A stretch of DNA of 32,000 bases from Candidatus Thorarchaeota archaeon (GTDB lineage: Archaea > Asgardarchaeota > Heimdallarchaeia > Hodarchaeales > Hodarchaeaceae). Both the position numbers and the translations under genes were made by a program. This document shows positions 19,325 to 25,324 of the stretch, one piece after another. The notes below the pieces were generated by a model that had not been told where the DNA came from, ran no database searches, and worked only from the letters and a program-made list of their open reading frames with translations. The DNA lies in NCBI GenBank assembly GCA_048882505.1, contig JBHLRO010000002.1, positions 420,001 to 452,000 of the forward strand. The letters run 5' to 3'. Position 1 is the first letter of the stretch. Each line of letters opens with the position of its first letter.

Positions 19325-19353
19325 AAAAAAAAAAGGGAGGGCATAAATGCCCT
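19325..19353 (-). terminator. Intrinsic (hairpin + U-tract) terminator downstream of the PGF-CTERM surface-protein gene
   Basis: Minus strand reads GAGGGCA-TTTA-TGCCCTC-CC-T9, starting 22 nt after the stop codon. Confidence 0.8.
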
Positions 19354-19375
19354 CAATATGTTGTGTAGTTTCGTG

Positions 19376-21226
19376 TTAGCGTTCTTTGCGCCTTTGTACG
19401 ACTATCACTGCAAGAATGGGTAGAGCAATTACTGCCACGACTAGATCAAAGCCTGGAATAGGAGCTGTACCCGTTCCGTCACCACTTACTGATCCTGCGA
19501 CCGCAGCATACGTGGGGTCATGTGTAATACTCTTACCACCCCACTGTGGATAAGAAACTGAGTATAGGAACGTTTTTCTCTCAACATTACCCCGAATTCC
19601 GCGGATCATATCGGCTTCACTAGATATCTGTCCATATGCGAAGTCGATCAAGCTCATCGGGATAAGTTGCCCTGTGGCATAAACATCAGTTGACCCATCC
19701 CATTTGTAGGGGATATCATCCAACCTGATCTCGCCAAAGGATGCTTGACTGTCACTAAATCGGATTCTTTGTACACGTGACGTGTTTTCAAACTGATCAC
19801 TGATCTCGGTGTCATTATCGTCGGCCCGCCAGCGGATTACTTCTTGTTGTTTCGCATCTACCACAGTAGAGGCCATCAACTGATTGAAAGATAAGCCTGT
19901 GAGCTGACTAGATGTATCCCACTCGCCTATAACATAATCAAACTTAAGATTCGCGGTTCCATCGTCAACACTGAAATGAAACAGGGTCGACACTTCATCA
20001 ATCGTGTGGAGTCCCGACACACTTTCATTAAACATGCTTATGTCTTGATTTCGTTCAATGGGGCGCAGAAAACCCTTCACATTGGCAAAATCGGAACCAA
20101 AATCCAAAATGTTGTTCGTAGTTGTCGGAGGGTGATAGGTTCGTGTATCTATGGAGTGTGTATCAAAACGGAAGAGAGCTTCATCCCCGATGGTCGGATA
20201 AACAAACGAATTTTGGCCGATTGTAACGTTTTTAACGCCAATGTCCATATATCCGTTATTGTTGGTGTCATTATAGACCAAACTGCCCAAGAGATGATGT
20301 TCAATATACTTATAGTCGAAATCGTTGATTAGTAGTCTTTGTCCGATCTTACGTAACGTGAGCTCATTAATTTGAAGTTGAGACACTGAAAATCGACCGC
20401 GTCGGAAGGTCCGAGCATCATTACTGACCCAGTTTACATCGGGATGCGCAAAAGTACGCATCTGGTTAACCGAAGGAAGACGGAAGAGTAATCCAAGTTC
20501 CCTGGCGAGCCATTCATGAGATGTCAGACGAAAAATAAATCGCTTCAATAGCGTAGCATTGGAACCATCGTTGTATTGCCACTCATTTTGAACAATATAC
20601 TTTCCTCTAACTTCGTCCTGCACCAATGACATAAATACACTCGTGAGGATTTCATCGCCCGTAAAGGGTTGGGTATCTAGAGTTTCATTGTTAGCGATTT
20701 TGGTGAATGCCTCAATAACGGATCTATCCTGGTCATAAAAAATTGAAACTGCTTTACGATCGTGTGTACTGTTTATCGCTAGCTGTGAATCGACGTTTTG
20801 GTTGATGGAGAGTGTTGTCTTGCCTTGCACTTCATTGTACAGGTTTGTTAGATACGTTTTTGAGTCATTCTCTACCGCGGGATCGTTTTCAATGGCGTTT
20901 ATTGTTTCGCTTAAAACGTTAATAAAACGAGCGAGGAATATGTTGTGAGTTCTAGTACGTACGCCAGTTACTTGGTATTCATAGGATCCAACGCTGTTAT
21001 AAACATCAAAGTAAACGTTATCAGGCGTGAAATTCGCACTTTGCATACCATGTATTAACCAGAGTAGGTTGCTATGAAGTTGAGTTCGCATGATGCCTTG
21101 TGGACGCTCTGGAACGATGGGGCCAGTCTTAGTTTGACTTATTGTTCCTGTGCTTGGTAGTATTGCCGACGCAATAAGCAACCAACACATCGTTGCCAAT
21201 ATTAGACTTTTTTGAGTTTTACTCAT
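19376..21226 (-). CDS. Secreted/cell-surface glycoprotein with PGF-CTERM-type sorting signal (surface protein A)
   Basis: Signal peptide MSKTQKSLILATMCWLLIASA from ATG 21226. C-terminus PIPGFDLVVAVIALPILAVIVVQRRKER = PGF + TM + basic tail after a Gly/Thr linker. Many N-x-S/T sequons and a DTNNNGYMD Ca-loop-like motif. Confidence 0.88.
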   Translation of the reverse strand: MSKTQKSLILATMCWLLIASAILPSTGTISQTKTGPIVPERPQGIMRTQLHSNLLWLIHGMQSANFTPDNVYFDVYNSVGSYEYQVTGVRTRTHNIFLARFINVLSETINAIENDPAVENDSKTYLTNLYNEVQGKTTLSINQNVDSQLAINSTHDRKAVSIFYDQDRSVIEAFTKIANNETLDTQPFTGDEILTSVFMSLVQDEVRGKYIVQNEWQYNDGSNATLLKRFIFRLTSHEWLARELGLLFRLPSVNQMRTFAHPDVNWVSNDARTFRRGRFSVSQLQINELTLRKIGQRLLINDFDYKYIEHHLLGSLVYNDTNNNGYMDIGVKNVTIGQNSFVYPTIGDEALFRFDTHSIDTRTYHPPTTTNNILDFGSDFANVKGFLRPIERNQDISMFNESVSGLHTIDEVSTLFHFSVDDGTANLKFDYVIGEWDTSSQLTGLSFNQLMASTVVDAKQQEVIRWRADDNDTEISDQFENTSRVQRIRFSDSQASFGEIRLDDIPYKWDGSTDVYATGQLIPMSLIDFAYGQISSEADMIRGIRGNVERKTFLYSVSYPQWGGKSITHDPTYAAVAGSVSGDGTGTAPIPGFDLVVAVIALPILAVIVVQRRKER

Positions 21227-21247
21227 TTTTCTGTCCCTATTATCCTG

Positions 21248-21277
21248 ATTATCATTCTGTTGAATGCATGTGATAAT
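21248..21277. promoter_or_regulatory. Inverted repeat ATTATCA-N16-TGATAAT (nested CATTC-N4-GAATG) just upstream of surface protein A: candidate operator or leader hairpin
   Basis: Seen directly, 22-51 nt upstream of ATG 21226. TATA-like TTTATATG and TTTTTATAAT lie further upstream on the minus strand. Confidence 0.4.
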
Positions 21278-21523
21278 GAAATGTTCCCTTCTTAAATCGC
21301 GTCTTATACGATTATTGAACACGGCCATAAGGAGTTTTTTTATTTATTTCAGCCATTTTGTATGAGTTTTTCTTCAGAGAAGGTCATATAAATCTGAATA
21401 CGATGATTTAATTATAAAAACACGCTGAACAGGAACATCTGGCAAAAAAGAAGTTTCATTGAATGAGATAAAATTGGAAGTGGTGTTTCAACAGTAATAA
21501 TTTCTGATGGTGTAAAAACCAGG

Positions 21524-22405
21524 TCAAAGCAGTGTCGAAACAACCAAACTCAGAATGGAAAACCCGTACAGGATAATAAACACGGGAACAAGGGCCCGCT
21601 CAAATGCAACGGTTTTGATAACCTGAAGGAGTTGAATCACAAAGACCGCAGTTATTATTTGAAGGACAAAGATGAAGAGAATAGAGACCGTTGGATTAGC
21701 TAAAAACGCAGCCAATATGATGAAATCTCTACTTAATATTATCACGGCTGGATACAGAAAGAGCGGGAGTAAGGCAAGTGGGATGCCACTCAAGAGTTCT
21801 CGTGAGAACCCCTTAATGGAGAAATAGCGTGTAATGATCTCGAGACTCAACCAAATAGCAAGAATTGAAACTAAATATTCGCCAAAACAGCCTATCAGGC
21901 CAAAATATAGATTACCATCGAGGTAGAAAGGAATCATCCCTAACTGGGAGAGATCAAGCAATAATATTTGAAGTAGGGTGACTCCAATGACTATCGCATT
22001 GAATTGGCGTGTAAATCCTCGTCTTCGGATAAATTCTCCAAAAAAAACACTAGAAAATCGTTTGGGAGGATGAAAAACGGGCGTGCTGTTATGATTATCA
22101 GCCCTTTGATCGCTCTCATGAAAAGTTTCACCCGATTGAATTAATCCATAGGCCGTTTTCCCTATTTCTGTAAGATAAAACCGTTTCTCCTCATCTTGAG
22201 CAACTAATTGACCCAACTTCTTGACATGAAAATAAAAAGAACCGGGTTTAATTTGAAGCCACTCTACTAGTTCTGTATATTGTACAGCTCGATGAAAGGA
22301 TCCTAAGTATCTCACAATATCGTAACGGATGGCATGCCCAAGGGCAGAATAGAATTCATGCAGAGCTATGGGTTTCTCTGCCACGGGTGCAATACCTACG
22401 TCCAT
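21524..22405 (-). CDS. Membrane-tethered transcriptional regulator: N-terminal ArsR-like winged HTH plus about 5-TM (Yip1-like) domain
   Basis: FYSALGHAIRYDIVRYL...YTELVEWLQIKPGSFYFHVKKL..LVAQDEEKRFYLTEIG is a typical wHTH. C-terminal 160 aa are hydrophobic helices. Confidence 0.85.
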   Translation of the reverse strand: MDVGIAPVAEKPIALHEFYSALGHAIRYDIVRYLGSFHRAVQYTELVEWLQIKPGSFYFHVKKLGQLVAQDEEKRFYLTEIGKTAYGLIQSGETFHESDQRADNHNSTPVFHPPKRFSSVFFGEFIRRRGFTRQFNAIVIGVTLLQILLLDLSQLGMIPFYLDGNLYFGLIGCFGEYLVSILAIWLSLEIITRYFSIKGFSRELLSGIPLALLPLFLYPAVIILSRDFIILAAFLANPTVSILFIFVLQIITAVFVIQLLQVIKTVAFERALVPVFIILYGFSILSLVVSTLL

Positions 22406-22455
22406 TGGGATGCCTCGGCTTACCTTAACAACTCGTAGTACATTGAAAGCTGATT

Positions 22456-23844
22456 TTATGGCTGTTTGGTAAATCTGCGAATAACCACTACGATTCCTAG
22501 GAGAAACCCAGACACCAAGATCATAAGACTGGTTGGTAGCAAAAACGAACGATTAGGTATAGGGAGAATCGGGAGTTCCACGGGATTGATTACCTCAATC
22601 AGAACCTCTGGATCATAAAAAATCTGGTTACCTTGTGGAAAAACGAAAATTCCCGTTAGGAACAACATGGAAACGAGATCGTATGGGGGACTTGGACTAA
22701 CCAATCGGTTCTGTTCCCCAGAAGATAATGATTGGAAATAAACTGGGAAATCTGTACTATCCGCTAAAACAGTGGGAACCCATGTGAAGTTGAGAAAGTC
22801 ACGATTGCCGTTTCCGAACGAGAACCGCGAATTAACGAATCTGTGGCGTGAAAATTCGGTTCCTTGGCTTTTGTTATGTTCTATCTCGTACGATTGGTTT
22901 ATTGAATTGTCCCGTTCCTGAGTAACGAATTTTAAGCGCCCTAGAAGATTGGTTGCTTGCAAAACGTTTCTGGAGAGAGAAAGCTGAATCAGTGGCTTAG
23001 TGATCCGAAATTGCTCTCTTGCAAAAGTAGTGATCTTCAATGCTAGTTTAGAGGTTGGGCTGCTGAAATCCCAACCTGTAATATTCATTGAAAACTTCAA
23101 TCGAGGAGTTAGGCGTAATGCTCTCAGGGGTAGTCTAGTAGGTTTCAACGTGACCTCCAAGTTTCGGCCTTGCGGGCTAATTTGAATCGTTGGAACCTGG
23201 ATTTCCTCTATTATTTCTCGTATCATCGTCAGCTCAAAGGTAAATGCAATCTTTTCTAGTTTTGAAGAGGTGGTTGTAGAATTTCGAGACCTTCTATTAT
23301 AGGAGACATTGAAAGCTGAGAAAATAACTTGATAGTGCAGAGCAGTTGAATTAATTGTTTCATTGAGCTTTTGAACTGAGAATATAATATTCGAGATGTT
23401 CACGCTGCGGATAAGGCGATCTGTTTGACGAGGATCATACCAGCTGTTGTCATTATTATCCTCAAATTCCACCAGATTATCGAGCTGGAATAAGATATGG
23501 TTTGTTGTGTTAAGTTCTAGCTCTTCCACCACCGTTCCACGGGTATTTAGGCGCTCAATTTTAGCGATTCGTTGTGTAAATTCCGTGAAAAAACGAATTG
23601 GCTGTGGATTTTCGGCGTTTCGATGCAAAATTCCGATTCTAGAGGAACCAATGAGGGCCTGGATCGATTTGACGCCGCCCATATAAGGAATTTCGTTTTG
23701 AACGATCTGAAGTGGCATGGCCTGGTTCAAATCATTAGGCCTGTTCGGGATAGCTCCGAGACTTACAATAGGGTTTAAACATAAGATAAAAATAACAGAA
23801 AATCTTGTGGAAAACCCAAAGGATGGCGTAAGTCTAAATCTCAT
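22456..23844 (-). CDS. Secreted, C-terminally membrane-anchored glycoprotein (surface protein B), distant paralogue of surface protein A
   Basis: Signal-like N-terminus, C-terminal TM plus RR, about 10 sequons, and motifs collinear with protein A (DNNDNSWYD; LKFSMNITGWD; FPQGNQIFYDP). Confidence 0.85.
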   Translation of the reverse strand: MRFRLTPSFGFSTRFSVIFILCLNPIVSLGAIPNRPNDLNQAMPLQIVQNEIPYMGGVKSIQALIGSSRIGILHRNAENPQPIRFFTEFTQRIAKIERLNTRGTVVEELELNTTNHILFQLDNLVEFEDNNDNSWYDPRQTDRLIRSVNISNIIFSVQKLNETINSTALHYQVIFSAFNVSYNRRSRNSTTTSSKLEKIAFTFELTMIREIIEEIQVPTIQISPQGRNLEVTLKPTRLPLRALRLTPRLKFSMNITGWDFSSPTSKLALKITTFAREQFRITKPLIQLSLSRNVLQATNLLGRLKFVTQERDNSINQSYEIEHNKSQGTEFSRHRFVNSRFSFGNGNRDFLNFTWVPTVLADSTDFPVYFQSLSSGEQNRLVSPSPPYDLVSMLFLTGIFVFPQGNQIFYDPEVLIEVINPVELPILPIPNRSFLLPTSLMILVSGFLLGIVVVIRRFTKQP

Positions 23845-23986
23845 TAACGAACTCTCAATTGAAGTTGGAAAAAACCTGATTAAAGCGTAGTGTTAAAGGT
23901 TCCCTGAACATATGCTCAAAATGGAGGAGAACAGATTTCCTAAGGATGGTACTCAAAACCAGGGTTAAGTTTCTCAAATGTACTGT

Positions 23987-25324
23987 TCAAGGCATAGATG
24001 AGCCCTGAGATAATGGGAGTTCAAAAAATATGGTAGTCCCAACTCCCTCCGTACTCTCCATCCATATTCTGCCGCCATGGGTCTCCACGATTTTCTTTAC
24101 ATGCGCCAACCCTATTCCTGTACCCTCAATATCTCGAGTTCTCATGCTAGGGGCCCGCGCAAATAAATTAAAGATACGTGACTGAAATTTCTCAGGAACT
24201 CCAATACCATTGTCTCTAACATAAATAGCAATGAAATTTTCATCAATGGCGTGTTTACCAATTTCGATTATAGGAGAAGGATTATCACCGCGATATTTAA
24301 TGCTGTTCCCGATCAAATTACTGAATAATTGCATCATGCGATTCTCTTCAGCATGTATCTGTGGAAATTCGTCTGAAATAACGATCCTAATGTTATTTTT
24401 CTTGATTTGTGTTGTATATTGGCTAAGACATTCCTCTATGATTTCTCGAAGATCTAAATCACGTTTTGGAGTCGTAACTATCCTCCCGATACGCGAATAC
24501 TCTAAAATTTGTTTTATTTGCGTCTCAATTATCTGTACATTCTTAATAATTCTATCTAGATAAAATTGAGCCTCCTCAGGCAGATCCTCTCCATATTCCT
24601 CCTTAATCGCAGCTGTAAACCCCTGAATCGAAATTAAGGGAGCCTTTAGATCATGGCTAATTGTATAGACAAACTCCTCAATCTCCGTATTTTTATTCCT
24701 AAGAGTTTTTGCTTGAACGCTCAATTTCCGTAATAATTCTCGTCGCTGTTCATATTCACGTCGTGCCCGTTCATCTTTTTCTTTAGCAGTCAGATCTAAG
24801 TCTGGAAGTGAACTATCGAGCTGGAAATGCTCAATTATAAAGAAAGCCAGATTTGAAACAGTTTTAAAAAAAGTGAAATCTTTGTGCAAAGGCCTAAAGG
24901 CGGGATCGAAACTAATATAGCCTAAGTACAAATCCTCGGAAAGTTTTTTTCCGTCTGTCCGAATAAGCAAAACCGAATGAATTGTCTTGCCATTTAAAAG
25001 CAATGAAAAACCTGGGGTCTCTTCTAGAGAGTAAAAGCCCACTTCTTCTTCAAATTGTTCGGTCTGAAGACTCTGTAAGAAGCTGCTTAACGAATTAAAG
25101 TCTTCCAATAATTCAGAATTTAGGCTGGCATGTGAAAGAAGCTTGGAACTATCTTGTAGAACAATTAACTCAATGGGGTAGATCTCTGATATGAGTTTAA
25201 GAAGATTTATCATGAAATTATTGAGATTATCAAAATCTAGTAACTCATATGAGAGTGCTAGAATGATCCTTTGCTGGCTTTCTCGTACTACAGTACTGTG
25301 GGCAGACTCTTTTTCTGGATTCAT
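23987..25324 (-). CDS. Cytoplasmic sensor histidine kinase (HisKA + HATPase_c, possible GAF-like N-terminus)
   Basis: H-box YTISHDLKAPL, N-box FSNLIGNSIKY, G1 VRDNGIG, F-box IFNLF and G2 GTGIGLAHVKK. No TM segment seen. Confidence 0.95.
   Translation of the reverse strand: MNPEKESAHSTVVRESQQRIILALSYELLDFDNLNNFMINLLKLISEIYPIELIVLQDSSKLLSHASLNSELLEDFNSLSSFLQSLQTEQFEEEVGFYSLEETPGFSLLLNGKTIHSVLLIRTDGKKLSEDLYLGYISFDPAFRPLHKDFTFFKTVSNLAFFIIEHFQLDSSLPDLDLTAKEKDERARREYEQRRELLRKLSVQAKTLRNKNTEIEEFVYTISHDLKAPLISIQGFTAAIKEEYGEDLPEEAQFYLDRIIKNVQIIETQIKQILEYSRIGRIVTTPKRDLDLREIIEECLSQYTTQIKKNNIRIVISDEFPQIHAEENRMMQLFSNLIGNSIKYRGDNPSPIIEIGKHAIDENFIAIYVRDNGIGVPEKFQSRIFNLFARAPSMRTRDIEGTGIGLAHVKKIVETHGGRIWMESTEGVGTTIFFELPLSQGSSMP

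What the first reader, a model, noticed from the sequence alone, without database searches (positions are those of the whole stretch)
19376..23844. Candidate new envelope system: two distantly paralogous surface glycoproteins flanking a membrane-tethered wHTH regulator
Seen: order B (22456-23844), wHTH-TM (50-nt gap), then a 297-nt promoter gap, A, and a strong terminator, all on the minus strand. A and B share collinear motifs despite low identity: LLGSLVYNDTNNNGYMD / LDNLVEFEDNNDNSWYD; FANVKG / AFNVSY; LKFDYVIGEWD / LKFSMNITGWD; WDGSTDVY / ADSTDFPVY; YPQWGGKSITHDP / FPQGNQIFYDP. A has a PGF-TM-basic sorting signal; B has a plain TM anchor. Established: PGF-CTERM proteins are processed by archaeosortase and include S-layer glycoproteins; membrane-anchored wHTH regulators (ToxR/ToxS, CadC, archaeal ArnR) sense envelope state, often with a co-encoded partner. 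Inference: B plus the regulator monitor assembly or Ca2+ status of the homologous major surface protein A and control its transcription, an autoregulatory envelope circuit I do not know to be described.
Basis: partly seen in the sequence, partly recalled or inferred. Interest (0 to 1): 0.72.

Follow-up and report, generated by a model that had tools for sequence, protein, structure and literature searches.

The report
Membrane regulator with GLMP-like surface partners
In this Hodarchaeales (Asgard) archaeon, a DNA-binding protein embedded in the membrane is encoded between two anchored surface proteins that are distant relatives with the fold of the human lysosomal glycoprotein GLMP; this gene pairing recurs across Asgard archaea, so it is probably an undescribed kinase-free link between the cell surface and gene control.

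Summary
Genes, gaps, terminator, motifs and anchors are as described.

A (616 aa) and B (462 aa) are not detectably alike by direct comparison (BLASTP E 0.065; family-to-family hhalign probability 1.2%). They are linked in three ways:
- A B profile enriched with distant relatives matches A: hhalign probability 94%, E 9e-8, 0 of 50 shuffles reach the score.
- Their models have the same fold, a galactose-mutarotase-like beta-supersandwich. The best solved match for both is GLMP (Z 15.0 and 13.7).
- They share a structural neighbour in the ESM Atlas.

The regulator is an ArsR-like wHTH (DUF7347) fused to five membrane helices.

B-regulator-A is conserved throughout Hodarchaeales. The same genome holds a second cassette of two B-like genes plus a paralogous wHTH-membrane gene. 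In 11 of 20 Asgard loci, from five other families, a wHTH-membrane gene lies next to a B-like gene. A complex model passes its controls (0.67 against 0.00) and places B's invariant juxtamembrane motif on the regulator's membrane domain.

Three things are not shown: that the regulator controls A, that A is a major surface protein, and what is sensed.

No paper describes this module. The scan found the same module earlier in another genome (e1-5444383), with the same reading.

The parts
22456..23844 (-). B: type I membrane protein of 462 aa. It has a signal peptide, a beta-supersandwich ectodomain (about residues 43-421), a conserved juxtamembrane P-N-R motif and one C-terminal membrane helix.
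   Evidence: ORF. Family of 10 close and 172 distant clusters. Model has pLDDT 68.7. Best solved match is GLMP 8r8q_B: Z 15.0, rmsd 4.6, 232 residues aligned. No Pfam family.
22477..22566 (-). Part of B (residues 427-456): juxtamembrane segment and membrane helix, predicted to contact the regulator.
   Evidence: P430, N431, R432, L435, S439 and L443 are invariant. Interface residues are 427-443 and 446.
21524..22405 (-). Regulator of 293 aa: cytoplasmic N-terminal ArsR-like wHTH, a basic linker, then about five membrane helices carrying many invariant polar residues.
   Evidence: Pfam DUF7347 at 29.5 bits, cut-off 27.6. 69 homologues at 50-60% identity. Alignment; hydropathy. The membrane part matches no Pfam family.
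22142..22357 (-). wHTH domain of the regulator (residues 17-88).
21227..21523 (-). Intergenic region holding the A promoter. It contains a block conserved in 5 of 5 relatives (21301-21320: a TTCAA element followed by a GTATAA TATA-like box), about 75-95 nt upstream of the A start.
   Evidence: Sequence; footprint alignment; the exact 16-mer occurs once in the genome.
19376..21226 (-). A: surface protein of 616 aa. It has a signal peptide, the same supersandwich fold expanded by helical insertions (about residues 68-578), and a Heimdall-CTERM sorting signal.
   Evidence: ORF. 54 homologues, all from Hodarchaeales or other Heimdall-group archaea. Model has pLDDT 73.9. Match to GLMP 8r8q_B: Z 13.7, rmsd 3.9, 248 residues aligned.
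19385..19462 (-). Heimdall-CTERM signal of A: P-G-F, a hydrophobic helix and a basic tail.
   Evidence: NF045529 at 25.0 bits, cut-off 24; 20 bits.
19325..19354 (-). Terminator after A: a 7-bp G+C stem, a 4-nt loop and T10.
23851..23909 (-). Upstream region of B with two blocks conserved in 7 relatives. One is a TTCA..TTTAAC promoter-like block (23891-23909), degenerate in this genome. The other is a CTTCAATTGAGAG block (23851-23863) just before the start codon.

Best explanation
The locus holds a conserved Asgard membrane module with three parts.

(1) B is a glycosylated type I membrane protein. Its ectodomain is a galactose-mutarotase-like beta-supersandwich, and GLMP is its closest solved relative by fold.

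(2) The gene 50 nt downstream encodes an ArsR-like wHTH fused to a five-helix membrane domain. B's conserved juxtamembrane segment and helix dock on the outer face of that domain. The pair then forms a kinase-free transmembrane device: B, or the partner's membrane domain, takes the signal at the surface, and the wHTH gives the output at the DNA.

(3) A is a diverged paralogue of B, found only in Hodarchaeales, with its own promoter and terminator. It has swapped the interacting helix for a Heimdall-CTERM sorting signal, so it is probably released from the complex and lipid-anchored on the surface. It is the most likely regulated target, or an extracellular partner of B.

Shown: homology, fold, conservation and recurrence of the pairing. 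Predicted: the complex. Inferred: signalling, DNA targets and the ligand (a glycan or Ca2+ through the D-x-N-x-N-G loop).
For: Fold and homology:
- Both models hit GLMP 8r8q_B first (Z 15.0 for B, 13.7 for A) and then the same mutarotase-like chain 3os7_A.
- Foldseek gives probability 1.00 (B) and 0.91 (A) for GLMP.
- Both share a 431-aa archaeal Atlas cluster as neighbour.
- The enriched B profile against the A family gives hhalign probability 94.4%, E 9e-8, over 362 collinear columns. None of 50 block shuffles reaches the score.
- The B-superfamily HMM finds A in the genome's own ORF set at E 2.3e-5.
- Bridging members carry A-type motifs and a PGF anchor.

Module:
- B-regulator-A is present in a relative where B is only 38% identical and in all four same-genus genomes whose contigs are long enough.
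- Contig C6 holds a second cassette: two B-like genes plus a 284-aa wHTH-membrane paralogue (BLASTP E 9e-5).
- In 11 of 20 loci centred on wHTH-membrane homologues, from five other GTDB families, a B-superfamily gene lies directly adjacent. Three more loci have neighbours with the same topology.

Complex:
- Score 0.67 against a best control of 0.00. This mark was reached by 58 of 80 solved complexes and 2 of 110 mismatched pairs. Runs agree in at least 89% of contacts and the partner's pLDDT is at least 77.
- The interface uses invariant residues of both families and fits the predicted topology.

Glycosylation: A has 10 sequons and B has 11, against about 6 expected from shuffles.
Against: - The core A and B families are not significantly alike on their own.
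- The link to GLMP is by fold and topology only. PF15065 and the PDB sequence searches find nothing. GLMP leads the mutarotase-like rows by only about 1 Z unit.
- The complex score is a model's own confidence, and my own alignments were used.
- Nothing shows DNA binding, the ligand, or regulation of A.
- The shared promoter block is only about 1.5-2 times enriched over its reversed control in relatives, not enriched in this genome, and degenerate at B's promoter here.
- The regulator HMM finds no homologue of the wHTH-membrane protein in the Thermoplasmata loci. The B-like genes there pair with a different, soluble regulator type.
Confidence: 0.5

Rival explanations
1. Accessory-subunit reading. 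B acts like GLMP does for MFSD1, or ToxS for ToxR: it stabilises and shields the polytopic partner. The sensing or transport function lies in the partner's own five-helix domain, which is rich in invariant polar residues. B's ectodomain senses nothing.
For: GLMP is the closest solved fold, and its single helix packs against its polytopic partner. The predicted interface is mainly helix to helix plus the juxtamembrane segment. The regulator's membrane domain has many invariant charged or polar residues, including E124, R127, D163, E189, Q249, Q258-K264 and E269.
Against: B's ectodomain is itself well conserved, with a Ca-loop-like motif. In Thermoplasmata, B-like proteins pair with soluble regulators and carry conserved cytoplasmic tails, which fits signalling better than shielding. 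This reading overlaps with the best explanation rather than excluding it.
Confidence: 0.25
2. Structural envelope reading. A and B are the two parts of a surface layer: B is a membrane-anchored base and A a lipid-anchored canopy, as SlaB and SlaA are in Sulfolobales. The wHTH-membrane gene is merely their local transcription regulator.
For: Both are secreted, sequon-rich, anchored paralogues. A has its own strong terminator and a conserved promoter. S-layer-like lattices and N-glycosylated S-layer proteins are reported for cultured Hodarchaeales (bioRxiv 10.1101/2025.02.26.640444).
Against: The genome carries several such cassettes. B-like plus wHTH-membrane pairs occur widely without any A. 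The preprint describes its S-layer protein as conserved across many Promethearchaeota lineages, whereas the A family appears only in Hodarchaeales and other Heimdall-group archaea. B's invariant helix is predicted to bind the regulator.
Confidence: 0.12
3. Synteny without function. The three genes are neighbours only because gene order is generally conserved in Hodarchaeales, and the A/B likeness is a common fold reached independently.
For: The whole neighbourhood (PhoU, NifU, hydrolase, RtcB, archease) is syntenic in relatives. The supersandwich fold is widespread, with 95 chains at Z of 8 or more. The core-family comparison is at chance level.
Against: There is a second, paralogous cassette in the same genome. 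Adjacency is seen in five other Asgard families whose surroundings differ. The collinear profile match far exceeds the shuffles. The complex model passes its controls.
Confidence: 0.08

Closest known systems
GLMP / NCU-G1 (Pfam PF15065; PDB 6NYQ, 8R8Q), accessory subunit of the lysosomal dipeptide transporter MFSD1
   Same: Both are type I glycoproteins with a beta-supersandwich ectodomain and one C-terminal helix that packs against a polytopic membrane partner. GLMP is the best solved match for both A and B and the nearest named Atlas family for B (TM 0.43/0.50).
   Different: There is no sequence similarity. The partner here is a wHTH-five-helix protein, not an MFS transporter. The archaeal family also occurs in Thermoplasmata, and the Atlas structural neighbours are labelled Thermoplasmatota and Bathyarchaeota. 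A special link to eukaryotes is therefore not shown.
ToxR/ToxS, TcpP/TcpH and CadC: bacterial membrane-bound one-component transcription regulators with a co-encoded extracytoplasmic partner
   Same: A DNA-binding domain is held at the membrane, a single-pass partner with an external domain is encoded beside it, and no kinase is involved.
   Different: ToxR-type proteins have an OmpR-type wHTH and a single helix. Here the wHTH is ArsR-like (DUF7347) and there are five helices. The partner's fold is unrelated to ToxS. The organisms are archaea.
PGF-CTERM / archaeosortase substrates, here the Heimdall-CTERM variant (NCBIfam NF045529)
   Same: A ends in P-G-F, a hydrophobic helix and a basic tail, and it scores above the family cut-off.
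   Different: No exosortase/archaeosortase (PF09721) was found in this 94.6%-complete genome. Processing is inferred only. B keeps a conserved, probably uncleaved helix.
Galactose mutarotase-like beta-supersandwich domains (for example PDB 3OS7, the YidC P1 domain, C-terminal domains of GH2 and GH38 enzymes)
   Same: Same fold, at Z 11-14 over 200-245 residues for both A and B.
   Different: Those are soluble enzymes or enzyme domains. No catalytic residues were identified here. A and B are membrane-anchored and have their own conserved motifs.

Membership tests
Heimdall-CTERM / PGF-CTERM sorting-signal proteins (A) | C-terminal tripartite signal matching the family model above its cut-off | tested here: met
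   NF045529 at 25.0 bits, cut-off 24, in the genome search. The hmmscan of the protein gave 20 bits, so the match is borderline.
Heimdall-CTERM / PGF-CTERM sorting-signal proteins (A) | Cognate archaeosortase encoded in the genome | tested here: inconclusive
   PF09721 gives no match at E up to 0.01 in a 94.6%-complete genome. The sortase for this signal type may belong to another family.
Heimdall-CTERM / PGF-CTERM sorting-signal proteins (A) | Cleavage and lipid attachment | not testable with these tools
   Needs mass spectrometry of the mature protein.
GLMP / NCU-G1 (PF15065) | Sequence match to the family model | tested here: not met
   No Pfam hit for A or B at E up to 1. PF15065 finds nothing in the genome at E up to 10. 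Neither family profile finds GLMP among PDB sequences at E up to 10: the B profile found nothing and the A profile found three unrelated chains.
GLMP / NCU-G1 (PF15065) | Beta-supersandwich ectodomain plus a single C-terminal helix | tested here: met
   Against 8r8q_B: Z 15.0, rmsd 4.6, 232 residues for B; Z 13.7, rmsd 3.9, 248 residues for A. Topology.
GLMP / NCU-G1 (PF15065) | Tight complex with a polytopic membrane partner | tested here: inconclusive
   The complex model scores 0.67 against 0.00 in controls. This is a prediction, not a measurement, and the partner family differs.
ArsR-like wHTH, Pfam DUF7347 (regulator) | Match above the gathering cut-off | tested here: met
   29.5 bits, cut-off 27.6, residues 17-88. 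NCBIfam's ArsR/SmtB model gives only 13.7 bits against a cut-off of 55.
ArsR-like wHTH, Pfam DUF7347 (regulator) | Sequence-specific DNA binding | not testable with these tools
   Needs EMSA, DAP-seq or ChIP.
ToxR-like membrane-bound regulators | OmpR/PhoB-type wHTH, one membrane helix and a periplasmic sensor domain in the same chain | tested here: not met
   The wHTH is ArsR-like, there are about five helices, and there is no external domain. The resemblance is in logic only.
   PF04893 hits four other places in the genome but not this gene at E up to 10. hhalign against the two genuine Yip1 proteins gives probability 0.2%. No structure of the membrane part was modelled alone.
Archaeal S-layer glycoproteins (A) | High abundance and lattice formation | not tested
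   No RNA run was listed, and I have no proteomics. The published Hodarchaeales S-layer protein could not be compared because its sequence is not held.

The most novel reading that the evidence does not exclude
Asgard archaea, and in another form Thermoplasmata, use a so far undescribed, kinase-free transmembrane signalling system. A GLMP-like supersandwich glycoprotein is the obligate external partner of a transcription regulator. In Asgard the regulator is membrane-embedded. In Thermoplasmata it is a soluble wHTH-STAND-TPR protein that may read the conserved acidic tail of the surface protein. The GLMP-type arrangement, 'supersandwich accessory subunit plus polytopic partner', would then have an archaeal precedent.
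Probability: 0.3. Interest if true: 0.8.

Novelty: new variant of a known kind. Interest (0 to 1): 0.62.

Why it matters
Very little is known about how Asgard archaea, the closest prokaryotic relatives of eukaryotes, sense their surroundings. This module is widespread in the phylum: 96 of 151 genomes hold a homologue of the regulator, and many hold several copies. It is built from three uncharacterised families, two of which have no Pfam model.

If the predicted complex is real, it gives a simple and testable route from the cell surface to transcription without any kinase. It would also be the first prokaryotic counterpart of the GLMP architecture, a supersandwich glycoprotein bound through its single helix to a polytopic partner.

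It also gives cultured Hodarchaeales a defined surface-protein pair (A and B) and a candidate regulator to study.

Tried and rejected
- Direct A-to-B comparisons gave nothing significant: BLASTP E 0.065, core-profile hhalign probability 1.2%, and neither core profile finds the other protein in the genome at E up to 10. Homology appeared only after B's profile was enriched with distant relatives.
- The family profiles found nothing meaningful among PDB sequences.
- GLMP's Pfam model finds nothing in the genome.
- Weak Foldseek rows for Ost1/ribophorin I (probability 0.1-0.2, TM 0.09) were set aside as noise.
- Yip1-like reading of the membrane domain: not supported.
- The language-model Atlas search on the membrane domain gave only a 0.82 hit to an unnamed Promethearchaeota cluster, which is at the noise level.
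- Expression: no RNA holder was listed.
- The first attempt at search for related loci, with a 52-sequence alignment, failed for lack of a conserved stretch.
- The Hodarchaeales-type regulator HMM finds no homologue in the Thermoplasmata loci.
- The histidine kinase at 23987-25324 was considered as a fourth member and rejected. In relatives the gene upstream of B is a hydrolase, and the kinase is absent or displaced.
- A palindrome, TTCAAC-N4-RTTGAA, follows the regulator's stop codon in 3 of 5 relatives but is not intact in this window, so it is not claimed as an operator.
- The identity of A with the published Hodarchaeales S-layer protein could not be checked.

Full report
**What is there.** Three genes lie on the minus strand:
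- B, 22456-23844, 462 aa.
- A 293-aa protein, 21524-22405, 50 nt downstream of B.
- A, 19376-21226, 616 aa, after a 297-nt gap.

A is followed by a 7-bp G+C hairpin and T10 at 19354-19325. Archease and RtcB lie downstream, and a histidine kinase lies upstream. Homologues are labelled Hodarchaeales, Heimdallarchaeota or Promethearchaeota, so the organism is an Asgard archaeon of the order Hodarchaeales.

**The three proteins.**
- A and B have no Pfam family.
- A ends in a Heimdall-CTERM signal: 25.0 bits against a cut-off of 24, and 20 bits. It is one of about ten such proteins in the genome. No PF09721 sortase was found.
- B has a signal peptide and one C-terminal helix. Its juxtamembrane P-N-R motif and several helix residues are invariant, which is unusual for a mere anchor.
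- The middle protein has a DUF7347 ArsR-like wHTH at residues 17-88 (29.5 bits, cut-off 27.6). A basic linker and about five hydrophobic helices follow, carrying many invariant polar residues.

**Are A and B related?** Not by direct comparison:
- BLASTP gives E 0.065.
- hhalign of the two core families gives probability 1.2%, score 25.4, a score that 3 of 60 block shuffles also reach.
- Neither core profile finds the other protein in the genome.

Three further lines change the answer.

First, the models (pLDDT 68.7 and 73.9) have the same fold:
- Both hit GLMP 8r8q_B first. B: Z 15.0, rmsd 4.6, 232 residues. A: Z 13.7, rmsd 3.9, 248 residues.
- Both hit the mutarotase-like chain 3os7_A second, followed by much the same list of supersandwich domains.
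- Foldseek agrees, with probability 1.00 and 0.91 for GLMP.
- In the ESM Atlas, both have the same 431-aa archaeal cluster as a neighbour. The nearest named family for B is GLMP.

In A the fold spans residues 68-578 with helical insertions, not only the C-terminal 300 residues.

Second, the exhaustive profile search with B's family found 172 clusters of 430-580-aa type I membrane proteins. Fifteen relatives found in genome contigs come from Thermoplasmata or unclassified archaea. A profile enriched with these clusters matches the A family:
- Probability 94.4%, E 9e-8, score 67.1.
- Block shuffles give mean 33.9, sd 2.7 and maximum 45, so 0 of 50 reach the score. The reversed profile gives 19.

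Third, that profile finds A among the genome's own ORFs at E 2.3e-5. Bridging members carry A-type versions of the D-x-N-x-N-G loop, the pre-anchor Y-P-x-G-x-x-I-x-H-D-P motif and even a PGF anchor.

I conclude that A and B are distant homologues. The link to GLMP is by fold and topology only.

**Is the triad a unit?** The whole neighbourhood is syntenic within Hodarchaeales, so the triad's conservation there proves little by itself. Two observations carry more weight.

- The genome has a second cassette on contig C6: two tandem B-like genes followed by a 284-aa wHTH-membrane protein. That protein is a paralogue of the regulator (BLASTP E 9e-5, 30% identity over 149 residues reaching into the membrane part).
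- The regulator profile finds homologues in 96 of 151 genomes of the phylum. I fetched 20 loci centred on such homologues. In 11 of them, from five other GTDB families, a B-superfamily gene is the immediate neighbour, sometimes two of them, tandem or flanking. Three more loci have neighbours of the same topology that the HMM misses.

A third cassette, on C30, combines a membrane protein bearing two C-terminal wHTH domains with two anchored surface proteins. One of these shares A's pre-anchor motif and Heimdall-CTERM signal.

**Do B and the regulator touch?** The single complex job used B residues 40-462 and regulator residues 100-293, each with its family alignment.
- The score was 0.67 (runs 0.67, 0.53, 0.67) against a best control of 0.00. 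This mark was reached by 58 of 80 solved complexes and 2 of 110 mismatched pairs.
- The runs agree in at least 89% of contacts, and the partner's pLDDT is at least 77.
- The interface joins B 427-446 and 100-106 to the regulator's 153-168 loop, 221-249 and 276-293.
- These stretches hold the invariant residues of both families. All lie on the outer side in the predicted topology.

This supports binding but does not show it.

**Does the regulator control A?** This is untested.
- The A promoter region holds a block conserved in 5 of 5 relatives (window 21301-21320), about 75-95 nt before the start codon.
- In relatives, a similar TTCAA...GT(A/T)TAA block sits before B.
- The exact 16-mer occurs once in this genome. 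With one mismatch allowed, the pattern occurs 22-69 times per genome, against 21-43 for its reversed control.

The block is therefore partly a generic promoter shape. It is a lead, not evidence of an operator. No RNA data were available.

**Reading.** Most likely, B and the wHTH-five-helix protein form a membrane complex that links the cell surface to transcription without a kinase. In logic this resembles ToxR/ToxS. In architecture it resembles GLMP/MFSD1: a supersandwich glycoprotein whose single helix packs on a polytopic partner.

A is a Hodarchaeales-specific paralogue that has exchanged the interacting helix for a sortase-type signal. It is a plausible target gene or external partner.

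The rivals are:
- B is a protective accessory subunit only.
- A and B form a two-part surface layer.
- The arrangement is mere synteny.

**Novelty.** I found no paper on DUF7347, on archaeal GLMP-like proteins or on this module. The scan met the same module earlier in another genome, and a follow-up agent reached the same reading (e1-5444383). My tests were run independently of it and agree.

Noticed in passing
L021-L035, L017, L018 (Thermoplasmata and unclassified archaeal contigs): Distant B-like genes are paired divergently with an 850-970-aa HTH-STAND ATPase-TPR protein in about 14 of 18 loci. In four loci (L022, L026, L030, L034) a roughly 260-aa four-helix protein follows; the L022 copy matches DUF4064. 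Many B-like proteins there end in a conserved acidic cytoplasmic tail (D-W-S-D-Y-Y-D-R), which a TPR domain could read.
   Followed up: partly
L016 (own genome, contig C30) 3624-8668, minus strand: A third cassette: a 504-aa membrane protein with two C-terminal wHTH domains, then a 493-aa anchored surface protein, then a 589-aa Heimdall-CTERM protein that shares A's pre-anchor motif (A profile E 5e-11 over the last 60 residues).
   Followed up: partly
L020 (own genome, contig C6) 1169-4588, minus strand: A second cassette: B-like genes of 392 and 409 aa, followed by a 284-aa wHTH-membrane paralogue of the regulator.
   Followed up: yes
L045, L049, L051 (other Asgard genomes): Some wHTH-membrane homologues sit beside a small (132-140 aa) four-helix protein instead of a B-like gene. 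This is possibly a different partner type.
   Followed up: no
table (Asgard genomes): The regulator's wHTH also matches the N-termini of many open frames of roughly 850-865 aa across the phylum. By size these are probably wHTH-STAND-TPR proteins like those beside B-like genes in Thermoplasmata.
   Followed up: no
L056, L060, L002: In three independent assemblies the contig ends inside this locus: right after the regulator in two, and after B in one. This suggests that the AT-rich regulator-A spacer, or strain variation in A, breaks assemblies.
   Followed up: no
window 21227-21328: The A frame is open for 34 codons upstream of the true start. The extension overlaps the conserved promoter block, so automatic annotation may call A 650 aa long.
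   Followed up: yes
window 23987-25324, minus strand: A HisKA/HATPase_c histidine kinase lies directly upstream of B. It has no evident membrane segment in its Pfam matches and is not conserved at this position in relatives.
   Followed up: partly
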